Assembly: GCA_963834935.1 (NCBI GenBank)
Contig: CAWIDS010000003.1
Span: 121,373-185,372 of the forward strand
Source of the DNA: Candidatus Nomurabacteria bacterium
Lineage (GTDB): Bacteria; Patescibacteriota; Minisyncoccia; Phycocordibacterales; CALRBL01
Direction of reading: 5' to 3'
Length of the DNA: 64,000 nucleotides
Below the pieces are notes generated by a model, which did no database searches, was not told the origin of the DNA, and worked only from the letters and a program-made list of their open reading frames with translations. The translations under genes were made by a program, and so were the position numbers. Of this stretch, positions 1 to 45,474 are shown in pieces. Position 1 is the stretch's first letter. Each line of letters opens with the position of its first letter.

Positions 1-544
1 CTAGGCCCGCCTTCTCGATATCCAAATCAGCAAAGCCGAGGGAACGGAGATGACCATAGAGATTGTTCCATCCAGTCTTAGTGGAACCGATCCTCCATTC
101 CGCTATAGTTTCTGAAGCAAGTCCTCGATTCTTCAAATAATCGAGTGATTTATCATCATTTTTCAACTCACTCACATAGAACGACGTGGCCTCCTCCATA
201 ATCTTACGGAGTAGCTCCTTTTCTTCTTCGTCCTTGCGGCTGCTGCTGTTTCCGGCATAGCTTTCGAGCTTTACGCCCGCGCGCTCGGCAAGCAACGCAA
301 GTGCCTCCTTGAAGTCCATCTTCTCGAATTCCTGGACGAAGGTGAAGATATCCCCTTTAGCCCCGCAGCCGAAGCAGTAATAGGATCCGCGTTCCGGTGA
401 CACCATAAAAGAAGGCGTCTTTTCGTTGTGGAAAGGACACTTTCCTTTGAAGTTGGCTCCCGCGCGGTCAAGCTTGATGTATGAAGAGATGATGTCAGAG
501 ATGGGAAGCCGTTCCTTGATCTGTTCGACGGCTTGTGATGACAT
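1..544 (-). CDS. dnaG: DNA primase DnaG, N-terminal part (gene runs off the window start)
   Basis: The reverse-strand translation from ATG at 542-544 reads MSSQAVEQIKERLPISDIISSYIKLDRAGANFKGKCPFHNEKTPSFMVSPERGSYYCFGCGAKGD, carrying the CHC2 zinc-finger signature of DnaG. The start overlaps the rpoC stop (TAATG). It is absent from the ORF track because no stop lies in the window. Confidence 0.8.
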   Translation of the reverse strand, partial: MSSQAVEQIKERLPISDIISSYIKLDRAGANFKGKCPFHNEKTPSFMVSPERGSYYCFGCGAKGDIFTFVQEFEKMDFKEALALLAERAGVKLESYAGNSSSRKDEEEKELLRKIMEEATSFYVSELKNDDKSLDYLKNRGLASETIAEWRIGSTKTGWNNLYGHLRSLGFADLDIEKAGL

Positions 545-3500: not shown

Positions 3501-4218
3501 TTCGAGGCTGTCAAGAAGTTTCTTGAGGTCGAGCTTCTTGAAAAGATTGAAGACCGCTTCAGCACCGATTGCAGCTTCGAAGAGCGTTCCGTATTTGAGC
3601 GAGAATTTGTGGTATACGATCTCGTCAAGGACTCGTCCTTCCTGGATACTCTCGATGTCGCGCTTTGCGCTGATCAGAAGTTGCTTGATTGCTTCCTTCG
3701 TTTTCTCGTCCTGAAGCGACTTTTCACTTTTGATCTTGTATTCGGAATCGAGATCCTTGAGCACGCGTGTCCGTTCTTCCTCATTAACCTTAGTGACGAG
3801 GTATCCGGCAAAGTAAACAACTTTCTCGAGCTCGCCACTGTTCATTCCCAGAAGAAGCGCGATTCGAGAAGGCATGGTTCGGAGGAACCAGATATGAGAA
3901 ACGGGCGTTGCAAGCTCGATATGCCCCATTCGTTCTCGGCGCACGATTGATCGCGTGATTTCCACTCCGCATTTTTCGCAGATGATTCCTTTGTATCTGA
4001 TGCCTCGGTATTTTCCGCAGTAACACTCATAATCCTTGTCCGGACCGAAAATCTTCTCGTCGAAGAGGCCATTCTTCTCGGAACGCTGGGTACGATAGTT
4101 CATCGTCTCAGGCTTGGTCACTTCTCCACGATGACCATTCCTTGATTCTCTCAGGCGATGCAAGCTTGAGTGAACTGGATCGAAATCGTTGAGGGTGTCA
4201 TGTTTTGTTTTTTTTCAT
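544..4218 (-). pseudogene. rpoC: RNA polymerase beta-prime subunit, split into at least 6 frame-shifted pieces as written
   Basis: Minus-strand ORF pieces 3309-4163, 2984-3628, 2278-3054, 1785-2396, 1217-1747 and 544-1101 are collinear with RpoC. Recognisable motifs are [15 protein letters not shown] (zinc finger), [15 protein letters not shown] (catalytic), MRTFHAGG and the C-terminal IGRLIPAGTG. Successive pieces lie in different frames, so these are indels rather than in-frame stops. The start region is atgaaaaaaaacaaaaca-tga: removing one A from the A8 run restores [38 protein letters not shown]. Confidence 0.85.
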
Positions 4219-4237
4219 ATATTTTTTTATATCGTTA

Positions 4238-7461
<3,224 letters not shown>

Positions 7462-7503
7462 ACGATAAAAATGCCCTAGGCGATAGGGTGTTATTGGTTA
7501 TTG

Positions 7504-7532
7504 ATAATAGAGACGCTGATAATCGTGGTCAA
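7504..7532 (-). promoter_or_regulatory. candidate sigma70-type promoter of rpoB (TTGACC-17-TATTAT)
   Basis: Minus-strand TTGACC (plus 7527-7532) and TATTAT (plus 7504-7509) are separated by 17 nt, about 45 nt upstream of the rpoB ATG. Confidence 0.4.
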
Positions 7533-7669
7533 AAGTTTGTTGCTTAAGAGAACGCTAGTAATCGGGTCGAGAGACAGTCTGACAACCAAATAATTACTCA
7601 GCGCCACAACAATGACTCAATCAGGCGTAATGAGATTGCTACTCTAGCAAACAAATATTAAATATGCAA

Positions 7670-7757
7670 GTGCAAAGGTTCTGGTAAGTATCTTTTTGAA
7701 CGGCTTAGGCTATCCTGCCGCTTGAGCGAAAAAAGATACTTATCAGAACCTTTGCAC
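7670..7757 (-). terminator. long hairpin (about 27-bp stem, about 32-nt loop) downstream of tRNA-Cys and upstream of the rpoB promoter
   Basis: gtgcaaaggttctggtaagtatcttttt pairs with aaaaagatacttatcagaacctttgcac with a single G-U. It is followed on the minus strand by a T-rich tract, so it is a likely intrinsic terminator or processing element. Confidence 0.45.
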
Positions 7758-18099: not shown

Positions 18100-18350
18100 A
18101 TTTAATGGGGAAGCGAACGCATGTGTAACTAGAATAGTCGAGAAGTGGGGGTGATTTGCCGAAAGGTAAAAACAAACCGCATGTGGCCCCTCTCTATATG
18201 AGAGGACGTTAAAGTCTGTTGTTCACGCAGCAGATGCTTCTTGATGGGCTCATGTCCCGTAGCCTGTTGGTGGAGGTAATGGCTCACCAAAGCTTCGACG
18301 GGTAGTCGATGGTTGAAAAATCATTGACCTTCAATCAGCCAAAAACACCT
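18100..18350 (+). ncRNA. 16S rRNA 5'-domain-like fragment (about E. coli positions 100-310), diverged, not part of a full rRNA operon
   Basis: Alignable by eye to 16S: GAAGCGAACGCATGTGTAAC ~ GGCGGACGGGTGAGTAAT; GTGGGGGTGATTTGCCGAAAGGTAAAAACAAACCGCAT ~ GGGGGATAACTACTGGAAACGGTAGCTAATACCGCAT; GATGGGCTCATGTCCCGTAGCCTGTTGGTGGAGGTAATGGCTCACCAAAGC ~ GATGGGATTAGCTAGTAGGTGGGGTAACGGCTCACCTAGGC. A terminator follows. Confidence 0.5.
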
Positions 18351-18351
18351 G

Positions 18352-18386
18352 CCGCGCAGCCTTCGGGCTGCGCGGTCCTTTTTTTA
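18352..18386 (+). terminator. rho-independent terminator (ccgcgcagccttcgggctgcgcgg plus T7)
   Basis: Perfect 10-bp GC stem with a UUCG loop, then ttttttt, closing the 16S-like transcript before the rpsA promoter (TTGCTT..TAAAAT at about 18404-18430). Confidence 0.65.
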
Positions 18387-18516
18387 TATTTCGCTTGCTT
18401 TCTTGCTTCTTGCGGCCTTTTGTGTAAAATCTACCTATTAATCAGTGCTTCTCGGTAACCCCGCCCTTGTCTCGATAGCTACGCAGGCGGAACCGTCTTG
18501 TACAACAAATATATAT

Positions 18517-19629
18517 ATGGTTACAACAGAAGAAAAGTTGGAAGAAAGTGCAGTAGTCGAGACAAAGAAATTGAGTTTGATGGATAAGTTTCTCTTGGAA
18601 AGCGTTACCCCTCCTGCAGAAGGAGACATCGTCGAAGGTCCGGTTATCGAGGCGCGAAAGGATCGCGTATTCGTCGATTTGCATCCCTATGGAACTGGTA
18701 TCATTTTCGGACGGGAATTCATCAATGCCCGCGACATCATACGGAAGGTCAACATCGGCGATAATATCGCAGCTAAGGTCATTTCCGTAGAAAACGACGA
18801 GGGTTACATCGAGCTTTCGCTCAAGGAAGCAAAGCAAGCGCTCATCTGGAGCGATGCCGAAGCAGCTATCCGCGACAAGACGACCTTCGACCTTGCAGTT
18901 GTCGAGGCAAACAAGGGAGGACTTATCCTCTCATGGCAAGGAATTCAGGGATTCCTTCCCGCTTCGCAGCTCAAGAACGATCACTACCCTCGCGTAGCGG
19001 ACGGCGACAAGGATCGCATTCTCGAAGAGCTCAGAAAATTAGTCGGAACCAAGATTCCAGTCATAATCATTTCCGCTCTTCCCAAGGAAGGAAAATTGAT
19101 CTTCTCAGAAAAAGATCCTGAATCGAAAGAAAAAGAAAAGATCGTCAGCAAATACGAAGTCGGAGAGGAATTGAACGGTGTTGTCACCGGTATCGTTGAT
19201 TTCGGAGTGTTCGTCAAAGTGGAAGAAGGCCTTGAAGGGCTTGTCCACATCTCTGAGATAGACTGGGCTCTCGTCGAGGATCCGAGAGCACTCTTCAAAG
19301 TCGGCGACAAGGTGAAAGTGAAGGTCATCGAGATCAAGGAAAACAAGATTTCCCTCTCAATCAAAGCCCTCAAGGAGAATCCTTGGAAAGGCGCCGAGAA
19401 GAAATACAAGAAAGATGACATCGTCGAAGGCGTCGTCATCAAGTTCAACCGCCATGGCGCGCTTGCTTCGATAGAAGAAGGTATCGCCGGACTCGTGCAC
19501 GTATCCGAATTTGGCAGCGAAGAAAAGCTCCGATCGACTCTCGAGCTCGGAAAGTCATACACCTTCAAGATCAGCCTCTTCGAGGCGAAGGATCAGAAGA
19601 TGACACTGTCGTTCGTCGAAAAGAAATAA
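18517..19629 (+). CDS. rpsA: 30S ribosomal protein S1 (four S1 domains)
   Basis: Repeated S1 domains (GDIVEGPVIEARKDRVFVDL.., ..GFLPASQLK.., ..GVVTGIVDFGVFVKV.., ..GVVIKFNRHGALASI..). Start chosen at MVTTEEKL; the ORF track starts at GTG 18445. Confidence 0.85.
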   Translation: MVTTEEKLEESAVVETKKLSLMDKFLLESVTPPAEGDIVEGPVIEARKDRVFVDLHPYGTGIIFGREFINARDIIRKVNIGDNIAAKVISVENDEGYIELSLKEAKQALIWSDAEAAIRDKTTFDLAVVEANKGGLILSWQGIQGFLPASQLKNDHYPRVADGDKDRILEELRKLVGTKIPVIIISALPKEGKLIFSEKDPESKEKEKIVSKYEVGEELNGVVTGIVDFGVFVKVEEGLEGLVHISEIDWALVEDPRALFKVGDKVKVKVIEIKENKISLSIKALKENPWKGAEKKYKKDDIVEGVVIKFNRHGALASIEEGIAGLVHVSEFGSEEKLRSTLELGKSYTFKISLFEAKDQKMTLSFVEKK

Positions 19630-35121: not shown

Positions 35122-35999
35122 GAGGCCCGCCAGCGGGCGAAAATGCCTGCTGGAAGGAGCCTCTTTGAGGCGCTTTCCTCGATGACAAGCTCTCCCGACT
35201 CGATGACGCCGCCTTTTTTCTCCTTGATTGAAAGAAGGTTATTCGCATAAGCAACAGGCGAGTAACCTGCCGAATATCCGTTGATGAGGAAGAAAAGTCC
35301 TTCTTCGTGGAGAAGCTGTTTAGCACCCTCGATTAACGGAAGAAGATCAGTCTCAATGTCCCAGACTTCCCTTTTCGGGCCGTGGCCGTAGGAAGGCGGA
35401 TCCATAATGATGCCGTGATAGCGGTTGCCTCGGCGGATCTCGCGTGCAACGAATTTCTTGACGTCATCGGCGATCCAGCGCACTTTCCTGTCTTGAAGGC
35501 CGGAGAGCTCGGCATTCTTGCGTGCATTCTCGATGATGCCGGAGGAGGCATCCACATGCACGACTTCCGCTCCCACTTTGAGGCACGCAAGGGTCGCACC
35601 GCCTGTGTAGGCGAAGAGGTTGAGCACTGAGACCGTGTCACGCGTCTTCAGCCTTTCTTCAATCACTTCACCGAGCCACTGCCAATTCGAGAACTGCTCG
35701 GGAAAGACACCAGTGTGTTTGAATGAGCCGAGAGTCGATGAGAATGAAATGCCTTCGAAGGAGGTCACCCACGTCTCTGGGATCTGCTTGTCCGAGAGCA
35801 TGCGCCATTTTCCTTTTCCCCCAATGCTTTCAAAAGCTGCGTCAGCCTTTTCCCACTCCTGCGCCGCCAGACCTTTCTGATACAGGGCTTGCGCATCCGG
35901 GCGGCGAAGGATAAAGCCCCGGAATCGCTCGAGCTTCTCACCTTCTCCGCTGTCGAGAAGCTCGTAGTCTTTTGAGGATTTGGTGATGAGGTTATTCAT
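35118..35999 (-). CDS. class I SAM-dependent RNA methyltransferase (RlmI/RlmK-like)
   Basis: ..VLNLFAYTGGATLACLKVGAEVVHVDASS.. and ..IIMDPPSY.. (SAM binding and the DPPY-like motif). Confidence 0.65.
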   Translation of the reverse strand: MNNLITKSSKDYELLDSGEGEKLERFRGFILRRPDAQALYQKGLAAQEWEKADAAFESIGGKGKWRMLSDKQIPETWVTSFEGISFSSTLGSFKHTGVFPEQFSNWQWLGEVIEERLKTRDTVSVLNLFAYTGGATLACLKVGAEVVHVDASSGIIENARKNAELSGLQDRKVRWIADDVKKFVAREIRRGNRYHGIIMDPPSYGHGPKREVWDIETDLLPLIEGAKQLLHEEGLFFLINGYSAGYSPVAYANNLLSIKEKKGGVIESGELVIEESASKRLLPAGIFARWRAS

Positions 36000-36619
36000 T
36001 ATTTTCTATTATTTGAAGTCCAAATATCATTCCACCAATCAGAAGGATTTACTTCATACATTACCTTACCAAGCTTCTTTCCTGTCTCTGTCTTGAGTTT
36101 TTCTATTTGAGCATTTATTTTTGAATTACCTTTACCGTAAAGCCAGATTGTTGCTTCTTTATTTCCTGCCCAATCATATTCTCTCAAAAGAAGTATTTGA
36201 TCCAAAAGATCTGCTTCCTTAGCTAAAATAGCTTCCCTGCTTTCTCTTTCTTTGTATTCAGTGACAAAATCCTTCAATTCAGGATAAGGTAAACCTCCTA
36301 GCTGTTCATTATCAATTTCATCTTCAAAAATCTTAATGTATTTCTTATGTATCCAATTATGATCATTACTCCTTACTTCGGCCATGTCATGCAGAAGACT
36401 CATCATTACTGTTTTATATGGATCAGCTCCTTCTTCTTTTGCTAAAAACCAGCTTATAACCGCTACTCTATACGAATGGGAAGCAATACTGTCAGACATA
36501 TCATCGGTCAAAAACACCTGACGATGCATTCGCATCAGTTTCCTCATCGTACCAATTTCATACAAAAAATTTACAATCTCCTTTTGATTTTTATTCTTTT
36601 GCGGTTTTTTAGACTTCAT
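35999..36619 (-). CDS. HD-domain phosphohydrolase (YfbR-like 5'-nucleotidase family)
   Basis: ..SDSIASHSYRVAVISWFL.. and ..LLHDMAEV.. (HD motif). Confidence 0.65.
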   Translation of the reverse strand: MKSKKPQKNKNQKEIVNFLYEIGTMRKLMRMHRQVFLTDDMSDSIASHSYRVAVISWFLAKEEGADPYKTVMMSLLHDMAEVRSNDHNWIHKKYIKIFEDEIDNEQLGGLPYPELKDFVTEYKERESREAILAKEADLLDQILLLREYDWAGNKEATIWLYGKGNSKINAQIEKLKTETGKKLGKVMYEVNPSDWWNDIWTSNNRK

Positions 36620-36632
36620 TAAATTAAGCGTG

Positions 36633-36704
36633 TGCCATCGACAGGAATCGAACCTGTATCGACTCGTTAGGAGTGAGCCGTTCTATCCATTGAACTACGA
36701 CGGC
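36633..36704 (-). tRNA. tRNA-Arg (anticodon CCU)
   Basis: The reverse complement GCCGUCGUAGUUCAAUGGAUAGAACGGCUCACUCCUAACGAGUCGAUACAGGUUCGAUUCCUGUCGAUGGCA. The anticodon loop CUCCUAA closes on an A31-C39 mismatch, so the anticodon assignment is moderately confident. Confidence 0.7.
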
Positions 36705-36984: not shown

Positions 36985-37368
36985 TCATTTCTTGAATACG
37001 CCTGTCACCTTTTGCCAGAAACTTCCCCACCACGAAGTCGTAGCGGTCGAGGTCGGCGTATCTTCAGGCTTGTCGACGATGACCATAATATTCTCGCCGT
37101 CCTTGGCTACCTGGAATTTGTCGCGTATTTCCTCTTCCACACCTGAACTGCTCTGCAGGCGTGTCGTCTCATCCTGAAGGCTTTGCTGACGCTGCATGAG
37201 ATCGTTCAATTCAGCCTGAGCACGAGCGGCATTCTCGCTGCTTTCCTTTTCTTTCTGGTAAAGGCTCCAATTGCCGCGTATGAGAAGGAGAATGACAAGT
37301 GCCATTCCTGCAATCATAAGCTTCGGGCGGAGCGAACCTTTCTTTTTCTTCTGTTGAAATTCCTTCAT
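36985..37368 (-). CDS. septum-formation initiator-like (FtsB/DivIC family) protein
   Basis: N-terminal TM helix followed by a coiled coil (..AQAELNDLMQRQQSLQDETTRLQ..). Confidence 0.45.
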   Translation of the reverse strand: MKEFQQKKKKGSLRPKLMIAGMALVILLLIRGNWSLYQKEKESSENAARAQAELNDLMQRQQSLQDETTRLQSSSGVEEEIRDKFQVAKDGENIMVIVDKPEDTPTSTATTSWWGSFWQKVTGVFKK

Positions 37369-37505
37369 AGAGGTGTATGATGACAGTATATCTCATGTTA
37401 TTCCATCCTAAAAACAAGAAGCTGGTACAGGTCATCTGGACCGTCCTCTGCATACTCATCGTCATATCGATGATCCTTCTGTATATCCCCCACTAAAGAG
37501 AGGTC

Positions 37506-37531
37506 AAAAAAGCCGGCCCTGACGGGTCGGC
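37506..37531 (-). terminator. GC-rich terminator hairpin (gccgacccgtcagggccggc then T6 on the minus strand)
   Basis: Immediately downstream of the 37547-38368 gene. Confidence 0.5.
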
Positions 37532-37546
37532 ACTGCAAGCTGAAGT

Positions 37547-38368
37547 TCAGCCGGCAATTAGAGAAGCGGAATCGCCACCGAGGTGCATCGGCTCGCCTAA
37601 CTTTCTGCTCAGAAGGTGCCTGACCGTACTTACGGTCTTCTTGCCTCCTATCACCCTGATCGGTATCGTCTTGCCAAATTCTCCTCCGTCATCGGCGGAG
37701 AACCTGAGCTGCGTCATGTCTTCAGCAACGCTCCAACGGCCAGTACCAAAAGCCTGATCCAAAGCCTGCTGGCAATCCTGACGGAGCCTGTTCTTGATGA
37801 AGCCCTTGAGGAAATTGCGATTGAGGCAGAGGATCAGAGTCTGACGTTCCCTGTTTGATTTGAACCTGTCGCAGACGATGACTTCTGAAGACCTCCTTCT
37901 CAGATGCCGAAATTCCATCGACGTAGCAAGATGCTGCATCAAACGGACATCGAGGATGTAAACATACTGGAGCTCGTTAGCAAGTATGACTCGCCTTTCG
38001 GTCCTGCCGATCTTCCTGCTCAGAAGTTTTGACTTGCCACGCTTTCCATGCTTGACCGAGGTGTGGATGCCCATGTAAAACACAAGAGCATACACTCCCA
38101 TGCTAACTTGCACCAGGAAGCCGGTCCCTTCGGTTTCTTTGTGGAGATTCGCAATCTGGCCTACTGTCGGACGATGAGCATGTCTGCCATTACACATCTT
38201 GACTTGGACTGCTAACTTCTGCCGACTGATGTAAACATCGGCAAGGTTGACGAATTCTTCTTCTTGAGAGACAACGGTTCCGCCGACAAGGTGAGCTAAT
38301 AGCTCTTCCCCGAAAGCAGAAACGGTTCCAATGACACGATCTGACGCTGCACAAAAATTCTTCTGCAA
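37547..38368 (-). CDS. hypothetical protein (273 aa), inside a locally GC-rich segment
   Basis: No motif recognised; GC is visibly higher than in flanking genes. Confidence 0.45.
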   Translation of the reverse strand: MQKNFCAASDRVIGTVSAFGEELLAHLVGGTVVSQEEEFVNLADVYISRQKLAVQVKMCNGRHAHRPTVGQIANLHKETEGTGFLVQVSMGVYALVFYMGIHTSVKHGKRGKSKLLSRKIGRTERRVILANELQYVYILDVRLMQHLATSMEFRHLRRRSSEVIVCDRFKSNRERQTLILCLNRNFLKGFIKNRLRQDCQQALDQAFGTGRWSVAEDMTQLRFSADDGGEFGKTIPIRVIGGKKTVSTVRHLLSRKLGEPMHLGGDSASLIAG

Positions 38369-38504
38369 GGCTTGCTCCTCTCTAATTGGTTAAAGGTTCA
38401 ACGTACAAATTCACGCTTATTATATCGCCAGGAGATGAAAATGGATATGAAAATAAACTTATACAATAAAAAAAGACCGGCGGTAAGGCCGGTCAGGAGC
38501 GAAA

Positions 38505-39785
38505 TCAACGCTCCATCACGATTTTGGCGAAGCGAATCGTCGGATCGATGCGCGCTTTGCGAGTCCCAGAGAAGGAATGATGGTCGAGGAAATGATCCTG
38601 TTCTGATGAGGGTATGACTCTCAGCCTTTCAGGCATCAATTTTCCGCCGACATAGTAACCACCAGAAGTGATGTTGTACCGGCAATGATCCTGGACCGGG
38701 CAGTTGCCACAGCTTCTCTCGAAGCGTCTGACTCGCCCTGCGACGGAAAACAGCGTTTCTGCAGACCATTTCAAGCCGATATACCGCTTCCTTCCTTTGG
38801 GCACTTCCTGATCAGCAGGAAACTCAATAGCAAATGACCCTTCATCAAGGAGCGTTCCTCTATCTCTTTCCTCCCTGGCGACCTTTTTCAGCTTGTCCTC
38901 GCGGCGGGAATCGACCACGTACCCGGAATTGCCCGGGTTATCGCGGCAGAATGATCTCGAGAGAAGCCAAAGACAGTCGGTCAGGGCGATCGGCGATATC
39001 TTGGAATTCCTGCAATACCACTCAGTCACTTCCCGCGCAAGCCGCTGGGTCTCTGCCGTCATGAAATCGACACCTACTGCTTGCTTGGCATTCATTCCGC
39101 GCACCCGAAGGATCTGATTTGAAGTCAGCAATCGCAGGATATGGAAATCGACTGGTACCGGCGCGTAGAACATCGGCACGAGCTTGGCGTCCATCAGGAA
39201 GTAGGCAATCATGGCGACCATCTTTTCCCGGAAAAACATGAATCCGTGAGGCTTGTCATCATTCCGGAAATCTCCGTTGCTGCCAATCGTCTTGCCTTTG
39301 ATGCGCTTTGTAAGCTTCGAGAATCTTCGGACGGTCATGCATCAGTAGGCACGGATTCCTTTCCAGAACCGTGCTAGCTTTCTCATGTTGTAAACCCAGC
39401 CGAGGGAATTCTCTTGTGCACGCTGACCGAGACGATGCTCGACAAGCGCTCCATTGATTTCCGTAATCTGCTCCCTTGTCCTTTGAGGCCCCCAATCATC
39501 GTAGTCATACGGATTGAAGAGGTCCGGCCTTTTCTCATGCATCTCCTTGAGCAAGGATGCGGCAGTGTCGCTTTCGACGCCGCCGCGCATCCACAAGCAA
39601 AGCAGGAAGAGGAAGACCGCATGCTGCGCGCTACCCTTTTCCAGGTTTGAAGGAAGGAATTGGTCAGCTTGGGGCACGTGAGCCCTGTTGTAAGGTGGCC
39701 CTTTTTCCGAGAGCCGTTGAATCAAAGCGTTAAAGACCACTCGGGCCTGGCGCTTATCTGCGTAGAACCGAATTTTTTCATTCAT
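38505..39785 (-). CDS. hypothetical protein, written as two same-frame ORFs (39342-39785 and 38505-39338) joined by one in-frame TGA
   Basis: ..KGIRAY-TGA-C-MTVRRF..; the stop at 39342-39344 and the next ATG at 39336-39338 are in the same reading frame. The C-terminal half has a Cys cluster RSCGNCPVQDHC. GC-rich. Confidence 0.4.
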
Positions 39786-39819
39786 AAATGTGCTTGGACT
39801 TCGCCTAGCTTAGCAAAAA

Positions 39820-39856
39820 TCCAGAAAAAGCCAAATCCCGCCTTTCAGCGGGATTT
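39820..39856 (-). terminator. terminator of rnpB (aaatcccgctgaaaggcgggattt plus GGCTTTTTCTGG on the minus strand)
   Basis: Hairpin with T-tract immediately 3' of the RNase P RNA. Confidence 0.6.
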
Positions 39857-40152
39857 GGGTGCGTCTATAAGCCGAATTCTGTATTGGACGATCATTTATC
39901 TGGGCCTTTGATCACTCAAAGGCTCGAGCGGCACTCGCCGATTACCGCCGTTTCGGGCATAAATCAGCGCACGGCCTTGCACAGAAGTAAGGATTTTGCC
40001 GTTTCACCCTCCGCTTGCGCGGAGGCTCGTCTCTGTTCGCACCTCGGCCATCGCTGGCGACGGGAATTACCCGCTACTCTTGGCTCTTGCGAGCCGCTGT
40101 GTTCGGACTTTCCTCCCTGCCTTTCGGCAAGAGCGATCATCTGGCGCACTCG
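39857..40152 (-). ncRNA. rnpB: RNase P RNA (bacterial type A-like, compact)
   Basis: On the minus strand: GAGGAAAGUCCGAACACAG (P4 5' strand), GCGGGUAAUUCCCG (L15-like GGUAA), GGAGGGUGAAACGGC (J11/12), and GGCCCAGAUAAAUGAUCGUCCAAUACAGAAUUCGGCUUA, which matches E. coli GGCCUAGAUGAAUGACUGUCCACGACAGAACCCGGCUUA. P4 covaries (GUCCGAAC with GAAUUCGGCU versus GUCCGGGC with GAACCCGGCU). Confidence 0.85.
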
Positions 40153-40161
40153 GCTACTTTA

Positions 40162-40698
40162 CTATTTTGAAGAGGTGTTGTCTACTAAAGTGATCTTGCT
40201 TCCCACCTGGACATTATGCTGATCGAAGAATCCAGCATTAACTTCAAGCACGTACTTCGAAGGAACATCCGAACCGAAAGTCTCAGGATAGGTGCTCGGC
40301 GACACGTTCTTTTCCTCATGAACGATAGTAAAGTCGCTGCCAAGCCATGCGATATCGAGTGGATAGATCATGTCTTTCATCCATATCTGTGGGTTACCGA
40401 GCGAATCGAATACGAAAAGCATTCCCTTGTTGTCATCAAGATAAAATGAGCCTCCGAGACCGCGCTCCCTTTCAGCTTCGGTGGAAGCAAGATCAACTGA
40501 TATTTGTGTATCGCCAATCGAAATCGGCACAGGAATCTTGTCATTCGAGCTGAGGTCTATCGATATCTCCTGATCAAGGCTGTTCTGCTGGAGGCTTTTG
40601 ACATAGGGGATGAATACGTAAAATATCGCCGCCACGATAAGCAACACGGCGACAAGAATGAGTATCTTCTTTAAGCTGCCGGCATGATCATAATCCAT
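40162..40698 (-). CDS. DUF192-family protein (COG1430), membrane-anchored
   Basis: ..GMLFVFDSLGNPQIWMKDMIYPLDIAWLGSDFTIV.. matches the DUF192 core. Confidence 0.6.
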   Translation of the reverse strand: MDYDHAGSLKKILILVAVLLIVAAIFYVFIPYVKSLQQNSLDQEISIDLSSNDKIPVPISIGDTQISVDLASTEAERERGLGGSFYLDDNKGMLFVFDSLGNPQIWMKDMIYPLDIAWLGSDFTIVHEEKNVSPSTYPETFGSDVPSKYVLEVNAGFFDQHNVQVGSKITLVDNTSSK

Positions 40699-40727
40699 GA
40701 CCTGATTATATATGATATCCTGGAAGC

Positions 40728-41102
40728 ATGCACAGGTTCGAAATCACCTACAGCCTCGCAAAATGCCCCTTCGGCTGGTGCGTCCTCGGTATGAACGGCA
40801 GCAGGATATGTGGTCTTTCTTTTTTGGAGAGCGATGACAAGAAAAAGGCCGCAGCGATGATCAGAAAATTTTCGATTCCCTTCGGAGAAACAGTGAACTA
40901 CTCGGATATTGCCAGAACCATCAAATCGCCCCGAGCTGTCAGGGCCGTCGGCACCGCCTGCGGCAGGAACCCTATCAATTTCATTATTCCCTGCCATCGC
41001 GTCCTCACCTCCGATGGTGGCCTTGGCGGATACAATAGCGGCATCAAGAGAAAGAAAGAAATAGTGGAATGGGAAGCGGAGTTGCGGACGAAAGGTAAAT
41101 AA
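40728..41102 (+). CDS. ogt: methylated-DNA--protein-cysteine methyltransferase (Ogt/MGMT) DNA-binding domain protein
   Basis: ..IIPCHRVL.. is the active-site PCHR motif. Confidence 0.8.
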   Translation: MHRFEITYSLAKCPFGWCVLGMNGSRICGLSFLESDDKKKAAAMIRKFSIPFGETVNYSDIARTIKSPRAVRAVGTACGRNPINFIIPCHRVLTSDGGLGGYNSGIKRKKEIVEWEAELRTKGK

Positions 41103-41188
41103 AAAAGTCCCGCACTGAGCGAGACATTCAAGCAAACGTGGCAGGCTTGTAGGAAAATTCCTTGACCACCGTCCCTTCCGCATTGAAG

Positions 41189-41602
41189 TTAACCGTAGCT
41201 TCGATTCTTTCCCCCAGCAAGAACGAGCGGAAGCCATTCCACATCGTCAATCCACATCTTTTTATAAGGAATATCCGAAAGTGGATACCATTTTGGCCGC
41301 ATCTCTTTCGTCTCAGCCGGCTCCCCTTGCCACTGTCGCGCAAAGAAAACATAGCAATCGAAGATGTGATTCCCATCGAAATAGAAATGAAGGAAGGCGA
41401 CCTGGACGAGATCTTCTTCCTCAGCAACGAGACAAAATTCCTCATTGAGCTCGCGTGCGGCTGCAGTCTTGATGCTTTCGTTCCCTTCGATCTTGCCGCC
41501 GGGCCCATTTATTTTTCCTTCGCCAAAGCCCTCCAATTTCAAACCAAGAAGAATCTCATCAGGCTTCAGGCAAAAACAAAGCGTTGTTTTTTTCATATAC
41601 AC
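41189..41602 (-). CDS. NUDIX hydrolase
   Basis: Nudix box GGKIEGNESIKTAAARELNEEFCL. Confidence 0.8.
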   Translation of the reverse strand: MYMKKTTLCFCLKPDEILLGLKLEGFGEGKINGPGGKIEGNESIKTAAARELNEEFCLVAEEEDLVQVAFLHFYFDGNHIFDCYVFFARQWQGEPAETKEMRPKWYPLSDIPYKKMWIDDVEWLPLVLAGGKNRSYG

Positions 41603-42404: not shown

Positions 42405-44309
42405 TTAAGTTCGAAGTTTCCTTAAGAGCACGTTCAGGTTGATGGCTGCTGCGCCGATAACACTGTCTGCGGCGCCGTAATATATGTATGCGACTCCCTT
42501 GATTACCACCAGGCTGCAAGGAAAGACGACGTTCGGCATCGTGCCTTTGAGCTCATATTCTTCTTCAGGCTCGAAAACAGGAGCGGCGGTACGGGCCTTT
42601 ACCACTGTCGGATCATTCAGATCAAGCAGGAGGGCGCCGACGCGGTACTTCCGGCTCCTTGAAATGCCGTGATAGAGAAGAAGCCATCCTTGCTTGGTCT
42701 TCACGGGAGGTCCGGCGATGCCGACCTTCTCGCTATCCCACATTCCCTGCCGAGGACTTATTATCTCGATGCACCTGGTTATGCTTTCCTTCGAGAAGTC
42801 GAGCGATGAAACCATATCGGCGCAAACGTCATTGTTGACCCTATGTAATATCATGTATTTTCCTCCTATCTTTTCAGGAAGGATCGCGGCATCCTTGTTT
42901 GAAACGGTTGGAGGCGTAATGACGTTCGGTACCGACCAGGCTTTCCAGCGCATGGCGAGAAAATCCTTCACGCTAATCGAGCTCACGGCGACGCGCGGCA
43001 TCTTGCCGTCATATGCGGTGTATGTCATATAGAGCTTATCGCCAACCTGCACGATGCGCGGATCCTCGCAACCATAATTGGCATTGGTTGAATCGGATCT
43101 GCGCTCGAAATCGGCGCGCGGAAGATATATAGGTTTTTTCGGACGTTCGCTGATGGCGAAACCGTCATCACTTACCGCATAGCCCAAGGCCGAGACGTTA
43201 GTGGCTGAAGCTCCCCTATATATGATATGAACCTTGTCGCCAAGATAGATAGCTGCAGGATTCAGAGTCCCGCCAGCCTCCCAGGCTAATCCAGGGCGCG
43301 GAGATATGATGGGGTTGCCGGCATAGCGCTTGAAAGCCGAGCGCTTCGCATTAGTCATGCTGTCCAGAAGGTCATCCAGATACACCGAAGCTATCGCGCA
43401 ATGTGTATCAGCCGCGCCATAATATATTTCCAATTTATCCTTCCTAATCAGCGCGCCGGAAGGAAATACTATATTGCTTACATGACCAACCTTCTCGTAA
43501 TATTCATCAGGAACCATGAACGGCCCTTTGGTGATAGCGATGATTCGCTTTGGATCCTTTGAATCAAGCAGTACTGCTTCGACGCCGAAAACGCTATCCG
43601 GCTTGCCGTAATTCTGGACGCGAGAATAGATGACAAGCCAACCCTTATCCGTCTTTACCGGAGGCGCTCCCAATTCGACTTGGTCGGAACCAGATCGGTG
43701 CAAGGGTATCTTGAATCCATCCAATGCTTTCATCCATTCATTCCAGTATGTTGAGGACCACATATCTTCCGGCTTATCGAATTCTATGTAGCAAATATCA
43801 GAAGGTACCCGATCAGTGTTTATCGTGACCAGCGCAGCCATCTTGCCGTTTATCTTTTCTGGGAAAAGCGCCATGGCTTTGGCATTGAAAGGCGTGACCA
43901 GATGCTTCTCGTCGATGGTTTTCAGATCCTTGCTCAGAGCGACGGCAACTTTGATATTGTCAGCGGAAAAAGGAAAGCCACCGAGTGCGGTATAGAATAT
44001 GTAATACGTCTTGCCGATTTTGGTTATGCGCGGATCCTCGCAGCCGTACTTGTCATATTCGGTGCTCGGCCCGAACAGGATTCTCCTGTTTTCAAAGTGA
44101 ACGCCATCCTTCGCCTCCGCCACGGCAATGACTGAAGTGCTTATATGAGGCTCTCTTAGTATTTCTTGCTCCGATTGTGCCCGATAGAGCAAATAAGTCT
44201 TATTCTTTTCTGCTATCGGACATCCGTTGAAAGTCGCCAAAGCTTCCCATGGACGAGATTTGTCGGGCGAGAGAATCGGATTATGGCTTGATCTGGTGAG
44301 AGTGAACAT
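42405..44309 (-). CDS. tandem double GH130-family glycoside phosphorylase-like protein
   Basis: Two repeats of the GH130 core, each with YGCEDPRI and beta-propeller motifs (..GWLVIYSRV.., ..GWLLLYHGI..). Start taken at MFTLTRSSHNPIL; the ORF-track start 44408 would overlap the upstream gene. Confidence 0.7.
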   Translation of the reverse strand: MFTLTRSSHNPILSPDKSRPWEALATFNGCPIAEKNKTYLLYRAQSEQEILREPHISTSVIAVAEAKDGVHFENRRILFGPSTEYDKYGCEDPRITKIGKTYYIFYTALGGFPFSADNIKVAVALSKDLKTIDEKHLVTPFNAKAMALFPEKINGKMAALVTINTDRVPSDICYIEFDKPEDMWSSTYWNEWMKALDGFKIPLHRSGSDQVELGAPPVKTDKGWLVIYSRVQNYGKPDSVFGVEAVLLDSKDPKRIIAITKGPFMVPDEYYEKVGHVSNIVFPSGALIRKDKLEIYYGAADTHCAIASVYLDDLLDSMTNAKRSAFKRYAGNPIISPRPGLAWEAGGTLNPAAIYLGDKVHIIYRGASATNVSALGYAVSDDGFAISERPKKPIYLPRADFERRSDSTNANYGCEDPRIVQVGDKLYMTYTAYDGKMPRVAVSSISVKDFLAMRWKAWSVPNVITPPTVSNKDAAILPEKIGGKYMILHRVNNDVCADMVSSLDFSKESITRCIEIISPRQGMWDSEKVGIAGPPVKTKQGWLLLYHGISRSRKYRVGALLLDLNDPTVVKARTAAPVFEPEEEYELKGTMPNVVFPCSLVVIKGVAYIYYGAADSVIGAAAINLNVLLRKLRT

Positions 44310-44313
44310 GTTT

Positions 44314-45474
44314 TTATGCTTTTCCGTGAGCGACAAGCCAATCGAGAAGTGGACGGAGCGGGGTTTTGGCCGTGCAGACATATTTATCTCCACCTCCATA
44401 GTATACAACCAAATCTTCCCCGTCGATCACCGCGCCGGACGCATATACCACTCCCGACTTCATGTCATTCTCATAAGGCATATCGGGCTCGAGCAGCGGG
44501 CCGCGGGAACGATAAAGTATCCTAGTCGGATCGGAGATATCCAGTATCATGCAGCCAAGCTTGTATTTATCTGGATCATTCTTGTCCATGGCGTGATACA
44601 GGAGCAGCCATCCGATGTCGGTCCTCAAGGGCGGCGCACCTGCTCCGCGCATCCAATTGTCCCAATGGCTCGGCCTGCCTCCTGATGGCGGCGAACTCTT
44701 TATGTGCTTGCCCGGCTGTTCATATATCTCATCCAGATAATCTATCTTGATGTCGGGAGATATGCTGTGCAGGACTGCGAACTTGCCATTTATCTTTTCG
44801 GGGAAAAGCACCCAGTTCTTATTCACTTCTCCCATAGGAGAAATGAATCGCTGCCGTTTCCAATTCCAGCGCTTCTTCTTTAAGTCTTCAGTCTTTATCG
44901 ACGTAAGCACGATGCGTACGCAGTCCCACCCCTCGAATGCCGTATAGGTCATGTAGGCTCGATCACCGATGATCACCAGCCGCGGATCCTCGCACCCTCC
45001 CCAGCCGCCACCTGACACGTAGATGCTCGAATCATAATTTTGCGGATATTCTTGACTTCTTTCTTTAGGATCGCGCGATGCAACTGAAACATACACTGGG
45101 TAGTCTGTTCTATCGTCGAATTTCACGCCGTCACGGCTTCTTGCATATCCGATGCGCGACAATCCGTCTTGGCCGATAGCGCGATAGAACATATGGAATA
45201 TGCCATCTTCATCCCTCGCTACGGCTGGATTGAATGTAGCTACCGTCTCCCATTCCCTGTGAGCCTGCGGCTTTATTATGGGATTATGCTTATGACGCTC
45301 CAGTGACAATCTGTCTGGCTTATGCTTCTTTGAAGATTTTCTCTTCGGAAAGAAAAGGAGGATGATCGAATATATCAGGTAAGCGGCAGATACGAGAATT
45401 ACAATCAGAAAAATGAACCAAATCATTTTTAATTCAGCACTGCCATCAATTAAAAAAAGTGATTGCATCAGCAC
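44314..45474 (-). CDS. GH130-family glycoside phosphorylase-like protein with N-terminal TM anchor
   Basis: TM helix then ..HNPIIKP.., GGCEDPRLV and GWLLLYHAMD. Confidence 0.7.
   Translation of the reverse strand: MLMQSLFLIDGSAELKMIWFIFLIVILVSAAYLIYSIILLFFPKRKSSKKHKPDRLSLERHKHNPIIKPQAHREWETVATFNPAVARDEDGIFHMFYRAIGQDGLSRIGYARSRDGVKFDDRTDYPVYVSVASRDPKERSQEYPQNYDSSIYVSGGGWGGCEDPRLVIIGDRAYMTYTAFEGWDCVRIVLTSIKTEDLKKKRWNWKRQRFISPMGEVNKNWVLFPEKINGKFAVLHSISPDIKIDYLDEIYEQPGKHIKSSPPSGGRPSHWDNWMRGAGAPPLRTDIGWLLLYHAMDKNDPDKYKLGCMILDISDPTRILYRSRGPLLEPDMPYENDMKSGVVYASGAVIDGEDLVVYYGGGDKYVCTAKTPLRPLLDWLVAHGKA

What the first reader, a model, noticed from the sequence alone, without database searches (positions are those of the whole stretch)
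37506..39790. GC-rich two-gene insert of unknown function next to rnpB, with an in-frame TGA joining two ORFs
Genes 37547-38368 (273 aa) and 38505-39785 have visibly higher GC than the flanking FtsB-like and DUF192 genes, their own GC-rich terminator, and no recognisable family. The second carries a C-x2-C-x5-C cluster (RSCGNCPVQDHC). The second gene is written as two ORFs in the same frame separated only by TGA-TGC-ATG (..KGIRAY*CMTVRR..). This may be a genuine stop and restart, a nonsense mutation in a 425-aa protein, or a recoded or selenocysteine UGA. Genome-wide TGA recoding is unlikely, because most genes here end in TAA/TAG and PrsW ends in TGA without downstream continuation. A foreign GC-rich pair adjacent to an RNA gene is the kind of place where defence or mobile cargo sits.
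Basis: partly seen in the sequence, partly recalled or inferred. Interest (0 to 1): 0.55.

Follow-up and report, generated by a model that had tools for sequence, protein, structure and literature searches.

The report
Frameshifted glycosylase gene plus nuclease partner
The "in-frame TGA" is an ordinary hidden stop codon exposed by two compensating one-base indels inside one gene for an iron-sulfur DNA-glycosylase-like protein; that gene and the nuclease-like gene beside it form an unannotated two-gene module scattered through Patescibacteria, with no recoding and no GC anomaly.

Summary
The coordinates, the TGA-TGC-ATG junction, the Cys cluster, the terminators and rnpB are all real. The "GC-rich insert" is not: the genes have GC 0.51-0.53 against a window gene mean of 0.495 (sd 0.032).

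ORFs 39342-39785 and 38505-39338 are one gene. About 57 homologs of 420-480 aa span both halves without a break. At the junction the homologs read FW.GDPR.LM.D.P.F. The window reads this motif (NPCLLMHDRP) only in another frame. Adding one base near 39357 and removing one near 39325-39328 raises the family-HMM score from 526.0 to 545.7 bits. In 9,368 control patches the largest gain was 2.4 bits. The TGA therefore lies in a 31-nt out-of-frame patch and is not Sec, recoding or a point nonsense mutation. rpoB and rpoC in the same window are broken by at least 12 frameshifts, so an assembly error is the likeliest cause (about 60%). A recent lesion is the main alternative.

The protein has a HhH-GPD superfamily fold (Qng1, AGOG, EndoIII, MutY) with an EndoIII-like Cys loop. 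The 273-aa neighbour looks like a PD-(D/E)xK nuclease (motif and topology only). Of 83 loci of this Patescibacteria family, 20 have a nuclease-like partner, 19 a ParB-like partner, and none both. Function is untested. Interest is modest.

The parts
38505..39785 (-). One gene for a ~425-aa Fe-S HhH-GPD-superfamily glycosylase-like protein, written in this assembly as two ORFs
   Evidence: 57 homologs, most of 420-480 aa, cover 98-100% of the fused translation. Both halves hit the family HMM (E 3.9e-57 and 1.8e-97). The AF2 model of homolog P0010 has pLDDT 90.7. Foldseek PDB matches are Qng1/DUF2419 (8e-4), MUTYH, EndoIII, MutY and AGOG.
39342..39785 (-). N-terminal ORF (147 aa), ending in the exposed TGA at 39342-39344
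   Evidence: The last four residues (IRAY) are out-of-frame sequence.
38505..39338 (-). C-terminal ORF (277 aa) starting at ATG 39336-39338. It carries the PVPVDFH motif and the Cys cluster
   Evidence: It is identical to database protein P0001. Its first residues (MTVR) are out-of-frame sequence.
39325..39358 (-). Out-of-frame patch of ~31 nt. One base is missing at ~39357/39358 (GG-AAT) and one is extra at ~39325-39328 (CCG-A-AGA). The alternative frame reads NPCLLMHDRP, matching the family motif GDPRxLMxDxP
   Evidence: Three-frame translation. Repair raises the family-HMM score from 526.0 to 545.7 bits. In 9,368 control patches the maximum gain was 2.4 bits and the mean was -19.9 bits.
39222..39224 (-). 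Lys188 codon (FREK), invariant in the family. Candidate Schiff-base lysine
   Evidence: Invariant column. Its role is inferred by analogy with EndoIII K120, AGOG K140 and Qng1 K199. Not tested.
39147..39149 (-). Asp213 codon in the invariant PVPVDFH motif. Candidate catalytic Asp of the HhH-GPD fold
   Evidence: Invariant. It aligns with PIPVDYRV of AGOG 1xqo and PVDTHVHRV of Endonuclease III 8a5f.
38682..38711 (-). C359-x2-C362-x5-C368, an EndoIII-type Fe-S cluster loop. The invariant Cys280 (38946-38948) is the probable fourth ligand
   Evidence: C359 and C362 are invariant, C368 is >=90% conserved and C280 is invariant. The loop aligns with CGKCILRERC of Endonuclease III. The Pfam EndIII_4Fe-2S hit is weak (E 0.13).
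37547..38368 (-). Gene for an intact 273-aa PD-(D/E)xK-like nuclease partner. Putative active site: E21 (38306-38308), D44 (38237-38239), Q55-V-K57 (38198-38206)
   Evidence: The family has 14-35 members, all without annotation. E21, D44 and K57 are >=90% conserved, and position 55 is Q or E. The AF2 model has pLDDT 82.2 and an alpha-beta-beta-beta-alpha-beta core. PDB matches to EcoRV, HincII and MutH are only weak (E ~1). The gene is adjacent to the glycosylase gene in 20-21 of 83 loci.
38369..38504 (-). Intergenic spacer. It holds the terminator of the glycosylase gene (38475-38494), then a TATAAT-like box (~38420-38429) and a GAGAGGAG Shine-Dalgarno sequence before the TTG start of the nuclease gene
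   Evidence: The terminator was found. The promoter-like box and the SD are read directly from the sequence and are inferred, not tested.
37506..37531 (-). Hairpin plus T-run after the nuclease gene
   Evidence: Read from the sequence. It did not meet the criteria of the scan.

Best explanation
The two ORFs at 38505-39785 are one gene. It encodes a ~425-aa iron-sulfur protein of the HhH-GPD DNA-glycosylase superfamily.

In this assembly the gene carries one missing base (~39357) and one extra base (~39325-39328), 31 nt apart. Between them the sequence is read out of frame, so the conserved Leu-Met codons CTG-ATG appear as C-TGA-TG and give the stop. Nothing is recoded. The lesion is most likely an assembly or consensus error (about 60%). 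Otherwise it is a very recent inactivating mutation (about 30%).

The intact protein is inferred to bind DNA through its Cys4 cluster loop and flip out a base. It would excise the base using Asp213, and probably nick the strand through a Lys188 Schiff base.

The downstream 273-aa gene is its conserved partner. It is probably a Mg2+-dependent PD-(D/E)xK endonuclease (E21, D44, Q/E55-x-K57) that makes or completes the phosphodiester cut at the same sites.

Together the two genes form an accessory two-gene DNA-targeting module. It is found sporadically in Patescibacteria and sits at different chromosomal sites in different genomes. In other genomes the nuclease is replaced by a ParB-like protein. 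I lean slightly to a restriction-like role against foreign or modified DNA (~45%) over specialised base-excision repair (~40%).

Shown: one gene, the double indel, the fold class, the conserved residues, and the gene linkage. Inferred: catalysis, physical cooperation and biological role.
For: One gene:
- Homologs are uninterrupted and cover 98-100% of the fused translation.
- 82 other loci have a single ORF.

Double indel:
- The alternative frame reads NPCLLMHDRP where the family has GDPRxLMxDxP.
- Repair gains 19.7 bits. The maximum gain in 9,368 control patches was 2.4 bits.

Artefact likely:
- rpoC and rpoB at 1-7700 are split into >=11 fragments in alternating frames.
- One of these breaks looks like a homopolymer miscall.
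- The only independent contig (Logan L083, 100% identical to 37036-39319) stops 6-9 nt short of the patch.
- All invariant residues of both halves are intact.

Fold:
- The AF2 model has pLDDT 90.7.
- Foldseek matches Qng1, MUTYH, EndoIII, MutY and AGOG with probability 0.98-1.0 for the top 11 hits.
- The profile aligns PVPVDFHV with the catalytic-Asp motifs of AGOG and EndoIII, and CGxCPxxxxC with the EndoIII cluster loop.
- Three members hit Pfam AGOG below threshold.

Partner:
- The conserved motif is E...D-x10-(Q/E)-V-K.
- The predicted core has PD-(D/E)xK topology.
- The weak structural matches are all restriction-type nucleases.

Linkage:
- A nuclease-like gene lies within ~100 nt in 20 of 83 loci, in tandem, convergent and divergent arrangements.
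- A ParB-like gene is adjacent in 19 loci, and no locus has both.
- The flanking genes differ in the window, L001, L002, L003 and L004/L005.
- HhH-superfamily glycosylases are known to act in antiviral defence (bioRxiv 10.1101/2025.10.29.685425).
Against: - No reads were available, so an artefact cannot be told from a real mutation. Outside rpoBC the window looks clean, and two errors that compensate exactly are unusual if errors are independent.
- The nuclease assignment has no significant sequence or structure match. Q at the E position in this subfamily could mean a non-catalytic DNA-binding protein.
- The best structural match, Qng1, acts on a nucleotide, not on DNA.
- 44 of 83 loci have the glycosylase-like gene with no recognised partner, so the partner is dispensable.
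- Against defence: there is no PADLOC hit, no relatives in viral contigs, and no mobile-element hallmarks. Neighbours are housekeeping or repair genes: MGMT-like and NUDIX in the window, and a UvrC-like gene, identified by eye, in 6 loci.
- No physical interaction, Fe-S cluster or enzymatic activity has been tested.
Confidence: 0.62

Rival explanations
1. Genuine split gene. After a frameshift exposed the TGA, a second indel put the ATG at 39336-39338 back in frame. The cell then makes a 147-aa and a 277-aa polypeptide by termination-reinitiation, and they reassemble into an active enzyme.
For: The second indel restores exactly the frame of the C-terminal part, and an ATG lies 3 nt after the stop. 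Every invariant residue in both halves is preserved. The break falls between two predicted helices.
Against: The patch destroys a conserved motif, including a >=90% conserved Pro. No Shine-Dalgarno sequence lies at a useful distance from the ATG; the AAAGGAA box is ~17-20 nt upstream. No other locus is split at this site. The same assembly has many frameshifts in essential genes.
Confidence: 0.07
2. The UGA is decoded: as selenocysteine, by stop-codon reassignment (code 4 or 25), or by programmed read-through or frameshifting.
For: The two ORFs are in the same frame and are separated only by TGA.
Against: Homologs have neither Cys nor Sec at this position, and the surrounding 10 codons match the family only in another frame. 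The 70 nt after the UGA fold no better than shuffles (z = +0.63). TGA ends 17 of 58 long ORFs. There is no tRNA-Sec in the window. Decoding the ancestral frame would need two opposite programmed shifts 31 nt apart, without known slippery sites.
Confidence: 0.02
3. The pair is ordinary housekeeping base-excision repair. The protein would be a lineage-specific replacement for Nth, MutY or AGOG, and the nuclease would process the nicked abasic site. It would not be an accessory or defence-like module.
For: The fold and motifs are those of classical repair glycosylases. Half of the loci have the gene alone among housekeeping genes. MGMT-like and NUDIX genes lie nearby in the window, and a UvrC-like gene lies within ~1 kb in 6 loci. 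GC and codon usage are native.
Against: The occurrence is sporadic: 96 loci were found in a scan of 185,579 species genomes. The chromosomal position varies. The partner is exchanged between unrelated folds, PD-(D/E)xK and ParB-like. The copy in this window is apparently dispensable if the lesion is real.
Confidence: 0.4
4. The large protein is not a DNA enzyme. It would be a Qng1-like nucleoside or nucleotide glycosylase that salvages a base (for example queuine) for these auxotrophic bacteria.
For: The best structural match is the queuine-salvage enzyme DUF2419/Qng1 (E 8e-4, ~315 aligned columns). That Patescibacteria depend on salvage is my own background knowledge.
Against: The EndoIII-type Cys loop is a DNA-binding element in EndoIII and MutY (established knowledge). 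The conserved neighbours are nuclease-like or ParB-like DNA proteins. The TM-scores to Qng1 and to MutY/MUTYH are similar.
Confidence: 0.08

Closest known systems
Endonuclease III / MutY (HhH-GPD glycosylases with a [4Fe-4S] cluster loop; Pfam PF00730 + PF10576)
   Same: All-helical HhH-GPD fold by Foldseek (2abk, 1muy, 3n5n). The P-V-D-x-H-V-x-R motif holds the catalytic Asp, and there is a C-x2-C-x5-C loop near the C-terminus.
   Different: No Pfam hit reaches threshold. The first Cys of the C-x6-C-x2-C-x5-C signature is missing, and an invariant Cys ~80 residues upstream probably replaces it. The protein is about twice the size, with an N-terminal extension and, in the long form, a charged insert. 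It has a conserved nuclease-like or ParB-like neighbour.
AGOG (archaeal 8-oxoguanine glycosylase/lyase, PF09171) and Qng1/DUF2419 (queuosine-nucleotide glycosylase)
   Same: These are the closest matches by structure (7ulc, E 8e-4; 1xqp) and by profile (1xqo, E 0.07 over PIPVDYRV). Three family members hit PF09171 below threshold. The family has an invariant Lys and an invariant Asp, the residue types mutated in the PDB entries K199C and D231N.
   Different: AGOG and Qng1 have no Fe-S loop. The Lys-Asp spacing is 25 here, against 32 in those enzymes. Sequence identity is 10-12%. The substrate is unknown.
Defence-associated HhH glycosylases Dag1/Dag2 (bioRxiv 10.1101/2025.10.29.685425); also Brig1 (PMC11078745), which is UDG-fold
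   Same: Dag1 and Dag2 are divergent HhH-superfamily glycosylases outside the housekeeping families. They are accessory in distribution, and Dag1 acts as a bifunctional enzyme on modified phage DNA.
   Different: The Dag proteins are single-gene systems from integrons of Vibrio and other bacteria. No homology to them was tested here. This family has no PADLOC hit, sits among housekeeping genes, and often has a nuclease-like or ParB-like partner.
Type II restriction-type PD-(D/E)xK nucleases (EcoRV, HincII, MutH)
   Same: The 273-aa protein has an acidic residue on helix 1, a D-x10-(Q/E)-x-K hairpin motif and an alpha-beta-beta-beta-alpha-beta core. The only nucleases among its weak structural matches are these enzymes.
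   Different: No match is significant (E ~1, probability <0.1; hhalign against MutH gives probability 0.3%). Most members have Q in place of the second acidic residue. No methyltransferase partner is present.
Frameshift-disrupted genes and consensus indel errors in metagenome-assembled genomes
   Same: An ORF is split by indels while every conserved residue is retained. Essential genes (rpoB, rpoC) in the same contig are also frameshifted. Homolog locus L084 shows the same kind of damage.
   Different: Here the two indels compensate exactly, so the two ORFs are in the same frame and mimic an in-frame stop codon.

Membership tests
Selenoprotein gene (UGA = Sec) | SECIS stem-loop immediately 3' of the UGA | tested here: not met
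   The 71 nt from the UGA fold at -12.1 kcal/mol, against a shuffle mean of -13.7 (z = +0.63).
Selenoprotein gene (UGA = Sec) | Homologs carry Cys or Sec at the aligned position | tested here: not met
   The homolog columns read L-M of GDPRxLMxDxP, and the window matches them only in another frame.
Selenoprotein gene (UGA = Sec) | tRNA-Sec and selA/selB/selD in the genome | not testable with these tools
   Only 64 kb is available. No tRNA-Sec is present in it.
Reassigned UGA (genetic code 4 or 25) | UGA is not used as a terminator, and in-frame UGAs occur at conserved Trp or Gly positions | tested here: not met
   17 of 58 ORFs of >=200 aa end in TGA. Dense intact ORFs are called with table 11.
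HhH-GPD DNA glycosylase superfamily | Two-domain all-helical fold shared with EndoIII, MutY, OGG1 and AGOG | tested here: met
   For the AF2 model (pLDDT 90.7), Foldseek gives probability 0.98-1.0 to Qng1, MUTYH, EndoIII and MutY, and 0.80 to AGOG. The model is of homolog P0010, which is 57% identical to the window protein.
HhH-GPD DNA glycosylase superfamily | Conserved catalytic Asp after the HhH / Gly-Pro-rich loop | tested here: met
   The invariant D213 in PVPVDFH aligns with the VD motifs of AGOG and EndoIII.
HhH-GPD DNA glycosylase superfamily | Sequence-profile membership (Pfam PF00730 HhH-GPD or PF09171 AGOG at the gathering score) | tested here: not met
   There is no PF00730 hit. 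PF09171 is hit only below threshold, in 3 of 53 members (best E 8e-4).
HhH-GPD DNA glycosylase superfamily | Base-excision (with or without AP-lyase) activity on DNA | not testable with these tools
   This needs biochemistry. The lyase role of Lys188 is an inference.
Endonuclease III-type [4Fe-4S] cluster loop | C-x6-C-x2-C-x5-C signature | tested here: inconclusive
   C-x2-C-x5-C is conserved and aligns with the EndoIII loop. The first Cys is absent at -7.
PD-(D/E)xK nuclease superfamily (273-aa protein) | alpha-beta-beta-beta-alpha-beta core with D on one strand and (D/E)xK on the next | tested here: met
   Predicted elements are H2-28, E45-47, E52-59, H69-80 and E90-98. D44 and (Q/E)55-V-K57 lie on the hairpin, and E21 on helix 1. 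All are >=90% conserved except that position 55 alternates between Q and E.
PD-(D/E)xK nuclease superfamily (273-aa protein) | Significant sequence or structure similarity to a known member | tested here: not met
Known anti-phage defence system | Match to a catalogued defence family | tested here: not met
   PADLOC gave 0 of 53 glycosylase-like members and 0 for the nuclease. The one weak hit was for the N-terminal ORF (PDC-M01B, E 0.004).
Known anti-phage defence system | Location in defence islands or on mobile elements | tested here: not met
   The neighbours are FtsB, glutaredoxin, rnpB, DUF192, MGMT-like and NUDIX. There are no relatives in viral contigs. No flanking repeats were found.
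Horizontally acquired GC-rich island | Composition outside the host range | tested here: not met
   GC is within +0.5 to +1.1 sd of the window genes, and GC3 is within 1 sd.
Horizontally acquired GC-rich island | Empty site in a close relative | not testable with these tools
   No relative closer than ~59% protein identity was found. A metagenome scan with the neighbouring DUF192 protein found nothing.

The most novel reading that the evidence does not exclude
The pair would represent an undescribed two-component DNA-targeting system of Patescibacteria. An AGOG/Qng1-like Fe-S HhH glycosylase would be the base-sensing, base-excising effector, and it would work with an interchangeable DNA-cutting or DNA-loading partner. 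That partner would be a PD-(D/E)xK nuclease in some lineages and a ParB-like CTPase-fold protein in others. The system would restrict foreign DNA carrying a modified base, possibly a 7-deazaguanine given the Qng1 resemblance, or would process imported host DNA.
Probability: 0.2. Interest if true: 0.6.

Novelty: new variant of a known kind. Interest (0 to 1): 0.3.

Why it matters
For the scan, an in-frame stop between two same-frame ORFs can be produced by a pair of compensating indels. It should be checked in all three frames against homologs before recoding is considered. This contig also has frameshifted rpoB and rpoC, so its other "pseudogenes" deserve suspicion.

For biology, the finding exposes a family of roughly a hundred Fe-S HhH-GPD glycosylase-like proteins that no library annotates. 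The family is confined to Patescibacteria. It is linked in a mutually exclusive way to either a restriction-type nuclease-like protein or a ParB-like protein.

If the module proves to be a base-excision restriction or DNA-processing system, it would add a two-component architecture to the recently recognised glycosylase-based defences. It would also bear on how ultra-small episymbionts handle foreign or host DNA. As it stands the function is inferred only.

Tried and rejected
- Sequence libraries. Pfam, NCBIfam, PADLOC and PHROGs gave nothing at threshold for either protein or for whole-family scans.
- Selenocysteine or SECIS. Rejected.
- GC or codon-usage island. Rejected.
- Flanking direct or inverted repeats as insertion scars. 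Only short chance-level matches were found.
- RNA-gene adjacency as an integration hotspot. It is not recurrent in 21 loci.
- Phage origin. Neither protein has relatives in IMG/VR.
- Empty-site test. A metagenome scan with the DUF192 neighbour found nothing, and the genome-collection scan did not return the window's own species.
- Independent confirmation of the junction. The Logan contig L083 stops at 39319. Exact look-ups of the 277-aa, 147-aa and DUF192 products found no other contig.
- Methylation-motif (GANTC) basecalling error. Both indels abut GANTC sites. However, two well-bounded rpoC frameshifts do not, and 255 other GANTC sites are clean. This is left unexplained.
- Literature. No paper describing this family in Patescibacteria was found.
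Full report
**1. What is in the sequence**

On the minus strand the order is:
- DUF192 gene (40162-40698)
- rnpB (39852-40152; RNase P class A, 133 bits), with its terminator at 39831-39858
- a 147-aa ORF (39342-39785)
- a 277-aa ORF (38505-39338)
- a terminator (38475-38494)
- a 273-aa ORF (37547-38368), followed by a hairpin and T-run (37506-37531; read)
- an FtsB/DivIC-like gene (36985-37368; PF04977, E 4e-10)

The 147-aa and 277-aa ORFs are in the same frame. They are separated by TGA (39342-39344), TGC and ATG (39336-39338). The string RSCGNCPVQDHC is present.

**2. The GC claim fails**

The window GC is 0.488. Across 57 genes the mean GC is 0.495 (sd 0.032) and the mean GC3 is 0.575 (sd 0.067). 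The three ORFs have GC 0.510, 0.526 and 0.529, and GC3 0.58-0.62. That is within about one standard deviation, and several ordinary genes are richer. The only strong compositional outlier nearby is the HD-domain gene 35999-36619 (GC 0.338, GC3 0.285). No repeats flank the pair beyond chance-level 15-22-mers.

**3. The two ORFs are one gene**

A search with the fused translation found 57 proteins. Apart from the exact 277-aa ORF itself, most of the 33 closest are 420-480 aa long and 43-59% identical. They cover 97-100% of the query, apart from one truncated sequence. In a scan of 185,579 species genomes, 96 stretches encode relatives. The best 79 loci come almost entirely from Patescibacteria MAGs: Saccharibacteria, Paceibacterota/Parcubacteria, Liptonbacteria, Zambryskibacteria, Kazan and others. 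In all of them the gene is a single ORF; only the window gives two separate hits.

**4. What the TGA is**

In the alignment the homologs read ...FW.GDPR.LM.D.P.F... across the junction. The window reads FWKG-IRAY*CMTVR-RFSKL, with no matching residue in ten positions.

Translating the other frames gives NPCLLMHDRP in the neighbouring frame, which matches the P, L, M, D and P of the motif.

I tested this formally. I built a family HMM from 53 homologs and scored every stop-free version of the gene with one base added at i and one removed at j near the junction.
- The best repairs add a base at gene position 428 (window ~39357/39358, inside GG-AAT) and remove one at 457-460 (window 39325-39328, inside CCG-A-AGA).
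- They score 545.7 bits, against 526.0 for the frame-0 reading with X at the stop.
- As a control I introduced 9,368 patches of the same kind and length everywhere else in the repaired gene. The best gained 2.4 bits and the mean change was -19.9 bits.
- The observed 19.7-bit gain is therefore what removing one such patch is expected to give.

The gene thus carries two compensating 1-nt indels, 31 nt apart. The TGA is the out-of-frame reading of the conserved Leu-Met codons (C-TGA-TG).

This excludes a point nonsense mutation, selenocysteine and UGA reassignment:
- No SECIS-like fold follows the UGA (z = +0.63).
- There is no tRNA-Sec in the window.
- TGA terminates 17 of 58 long ORFs.
- Decoding the ancestral frame would need two opposite programmed frameshifts, which is not credible.

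**5. Real lesion or artefact?**

I could not see reads, so this stays a probability.

For an artefact:
- The first 7.7 kb of the same window holds rpoC and rpoB shattered into at least 11 ORF fragments. Their Pfam domains run in order (Rpb1_1 to Rpb1_5, Rpb2_1 to Rpb2_7) and their frames alternate, which needs at least 12 uncompensated frameshifts in essential genes.
- At one tightly bounded break (1788-1795) the sequence TTAACACTGCT would restore the conserved beta-prime motif if it were TTAAAAACTGCT. That is a homopolymer-type miscall (the motif is from my own knowledge).
- The contig therefore contains consensus indel errors.
- The only independent assembly of this region is a 2,284-bp Logan contig from run ERR10755936. 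It is 100% identical to 37036-39319 and ends 6-9 nt before the inferred extra base. The patch is therefore not independently supported.
- Every family-invariant residue in both halves is intact. Any real lesion would have to be very recent.
- A compensating second indel cannot have been selected in the usual way, because the patch contains a stop.

Against an artefact:
- The remaining 56 kb looks clean.
- Two independent errors that cancel exactly are unusual.

My estimates are: artefact ~60%, recent inactivation ~30%, functional split gene using the ATG three bases after the stop <10%, recoding ~2%.

One oddity is unexplained. Both indels abut GANTC sites (39354-39358 and 39321-39325), which has about a 0.2% chance. 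The rpoC breaks do not share this, and 255 other GANTC sites show no lesion.

**6. What the large protein is**

No sequence library recognises it.

An AlphaFold2 model of homolog P0010 (57% identical, 53-sequence alignment) is confident: pLDDT 90.7, pTM 0.89, and almost entirely helical.

Foldseek against the PDB returns only HhH-GPD-superfamily enzymes at the top:
- the queuine-salvage glycosylase DUF2419/Qng1 (7ulc, E 8e-4, ~315 aligned columns)
- human MUTYH (3n5n)
- E. coli endonuclease III (2abk)
- MutY (1muy)
- Pa-AGOG (1xqp)
- OGG1

A profile search of PDB sequences aligns the invariant PVPVDFHV with PIPVDYRV of AGOG (E 0.07) and PVDTHVHRV of endonuclease III. It also aligns CGrCPveetC with CGKCILRERC, the Fe-S loop of endonuclease III. 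Three members touch Pfam AGOG below threshold.

The invariant residues include K188, D213, C280, C359 and C362, and C368 is at least 90% conserved (window numbering).

I infer a bifunctional glycosylase/lyase type active site (Lys/Asp) and a Cys4 cluster whose first ligand has moved. Neither inference is tested. Short forms (~340-400 aa) lack the charged insert that is present in the window's long form.

**7. What the 273-aa protein is**

It is intact and has its own SD (GAGAGGAG) and a TATAAT-like box, both read.

The family is small. The first search found 8 proteins and the profile search 14. A profile search over 1.84 billion cluster representatives found 32. All are unannotated.

Across 35 members E21, D44, V56, K57, N60, H63 and R66 are at least 90% conserved, and Q71 is invariant. 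Position 55 is Q or E. The motif is therefore E...D-x10-(Q/E)-V-K.

The AF2 model (pLDDT 82.2) places E21 on a long first helix, D44 and Q55-V-K57 on a beta hairpin, then a helix and a strand. This is the PD-(D/E)xK core order.

The structural matches are weak and not significant, though the nucleases among them are EcoRV, HincII and MutH (E 0.8-2). The BFVD, PDB-profile, Pfam and MutH hhalign tests gave nothing significant. I call it a probable PD-(D/E)xK nuclease (~70%). The Q variant may be a poor catalyst or only a DNA binder.

**8. The two genes are linked**

The database contig lengths already suggested co-occurrence. Fetched loci show glycosylase gene then nuclease gene in tandem in L001, L002 and L003, with 110-150-nt spacers as in the window.

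After HMM iteration over 83 loci:
- A nuclease-like gene lies next to the glycosylase-like gene in 20 loci (median gap 89 nt), in tandem, convergent and divergent arrangements.
- A ParB-like gene (ParB_N + HTH_ParB, GERRxRA box, 370-450 aa) lies next to it in 19 loci (median gap 68 nt), again in all arrangements.
- No locus has both.
- 44 loci have neither.
- An HNH-like neighbour occurs in 3 loci.

A neighbour-joining tree shows that partner type follows glycosylase clades with several switches. The window groups with L007 (no partner) and L001-L005 (nuclease).

Nuclease homologs checked from their own side are again next to a glycosylase-like gene in L085 and L084. In L084 that gene is broken into at least 5 frames, in an assembly that also splits another gene. 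One case has no such neighbour.

The flanking genes differ in every genome examined, and RNA genes are not recurrent neighbours. There are no relatives in viral contigs.

**9. How it most likely works**

Shown: one gene, the fold class, the conserved Lys, Asp and Cys residues, and the conserved adjacency with alternative partners.

Inferred: the large protein binds duplex DNA with the cluster loop, flips and excises a base (D213), and probably nicks by beta-elimination (K188). The partner, a nuclease or a ParB-like DNA clamp or nuclease, acts on the same DNA.

The biological role is open.
- Sporadic distribution, a shifting location and partner replacement by unrelated folds are the habits of restriction-like modules. 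HhH-superfamily glycosylases have recently been shown to defend against phages with modified guanines (bioRxiv 10.1101/2025.10.29.685425).
- On the other side are the native composition, the housekeeping and repair neighbours (an MGMT-like gene and NUDIX in the window; a UvrC-like gene in six loci), the lack of any PADLOC hit, and the many solitary copies. These fit a lineage-specific repair enzyme.
- A Qng1-like salvage role is a minor rival.

**10. Comparison, novelty, verdict**

The junction is ordinary: a frameshift lesion, probably an assembly error, that happens to mimic an in-frame stop. The "GC-rich foreign insert" is not supported.

What remains of interest is the family itself. It is an unannotated, Patescibacteria-restricted Fe-S member of the HhH-GPD superfamily, closest to AGOG/Qng1 in fold and to EndoIII in its cluster loop. 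It sits in a two-gene arrangement with interchangeable nuclease-like or ParB-like partners. I found no description of it. I rate it a new variant of a known kind, with interest 0.3.

Noticed in passing
window 1-7700 (- strand): rpoC and rpoB are shattered into at least 11 ORF fragments in alternating frames, with Pfam Rpb1_1 to Rpb1_5 and Rpb2_1 to Rpb2_7 in order. That needs at least 12 uncompensated frameshifts in essential genes. It points to local consensus indel errors in this contig. One break (1788-1795) looks like a homopolymer miscall.
   Followed up: partly
window 18108-18369 (+): A 262-nt match to the bacterial SSU rRNA model, positions 104-347 only (51-57 bits, gathering score 50). 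It lies in the 410-nt gap directly upstream of the ribosomal protein S1 gene (18445-19629) on the same strand. It could be an rRNA-like leader or an rRNA fragment. No full 16S gene is in the window.
   Followed up: partly
window 35999-36619 (-): An HD-domain / YfbR-like 5'-deoxynucleotidase gene with GC 0.338 and GC3 0.285, about 5 sd below the window's genes. This is the real compositional outlier near the finding, next to tRNA-Arg(CCT) at 36632-36704.
   Followed up: no
window 39321-39325 and 39354-39358: Both inferred indels in the glycosylase-like gene abut GANTC sites (GATTC, GAATC). The chance of this is about 0.2%. The rpoC frameshifts do not share the feature, so it is unexplained.
   Followed up: partly
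L015, L017, L023, L033, L058, L061, L068, L072, L077 and others (next to the match at ~6001-7100): In 19 of 83 loci the glycosylase-like gene is adjacent to a 370-450-aa ParB-like protein (ParB_N + HTH_ParB, GERRxRA box) instead of the nuclease-like protein. The two partners never occur together. An HNH / His-Me endonuclease-like gene is the neighbour in 3 loci (for example L033 3455-4063).
   Followed up: partly
L084 2425-3814: The glycosylase-like gene next to nuclease homolog P0060 is broken across at least 5 frame changes, and an Amidohydro_2 gene on the same contig is split in two. This is another error-rich assembly, not a conserved split.
   Followed up: partly
L083 (= window 37036-39319): The independent Logan contig from run ERR10755936 is 100% identical to the window. 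It ends 2 nt from the GATTC site and 6-9 nt from the inferred extra base, so the junction itself has no second source.
   Followed up: yes
window 40728-41102 (+), 41189-41602 (-): An MGMT-like DNA_binding_1 protein and a NUDIX hydrolase lie just beyond rnpB/DUF192. A spurious 188-aa ORF (40671-41237, -) overlaps the MGMT-like gene on the opposite strand.
   Followed up: no
window 42405-44408 and 44314-45474 (-): Two adjacent GH130 (mannooligosaccharide phosphorylase family) genes. The larger one carries two GH130 stretches.
   Followed up: no
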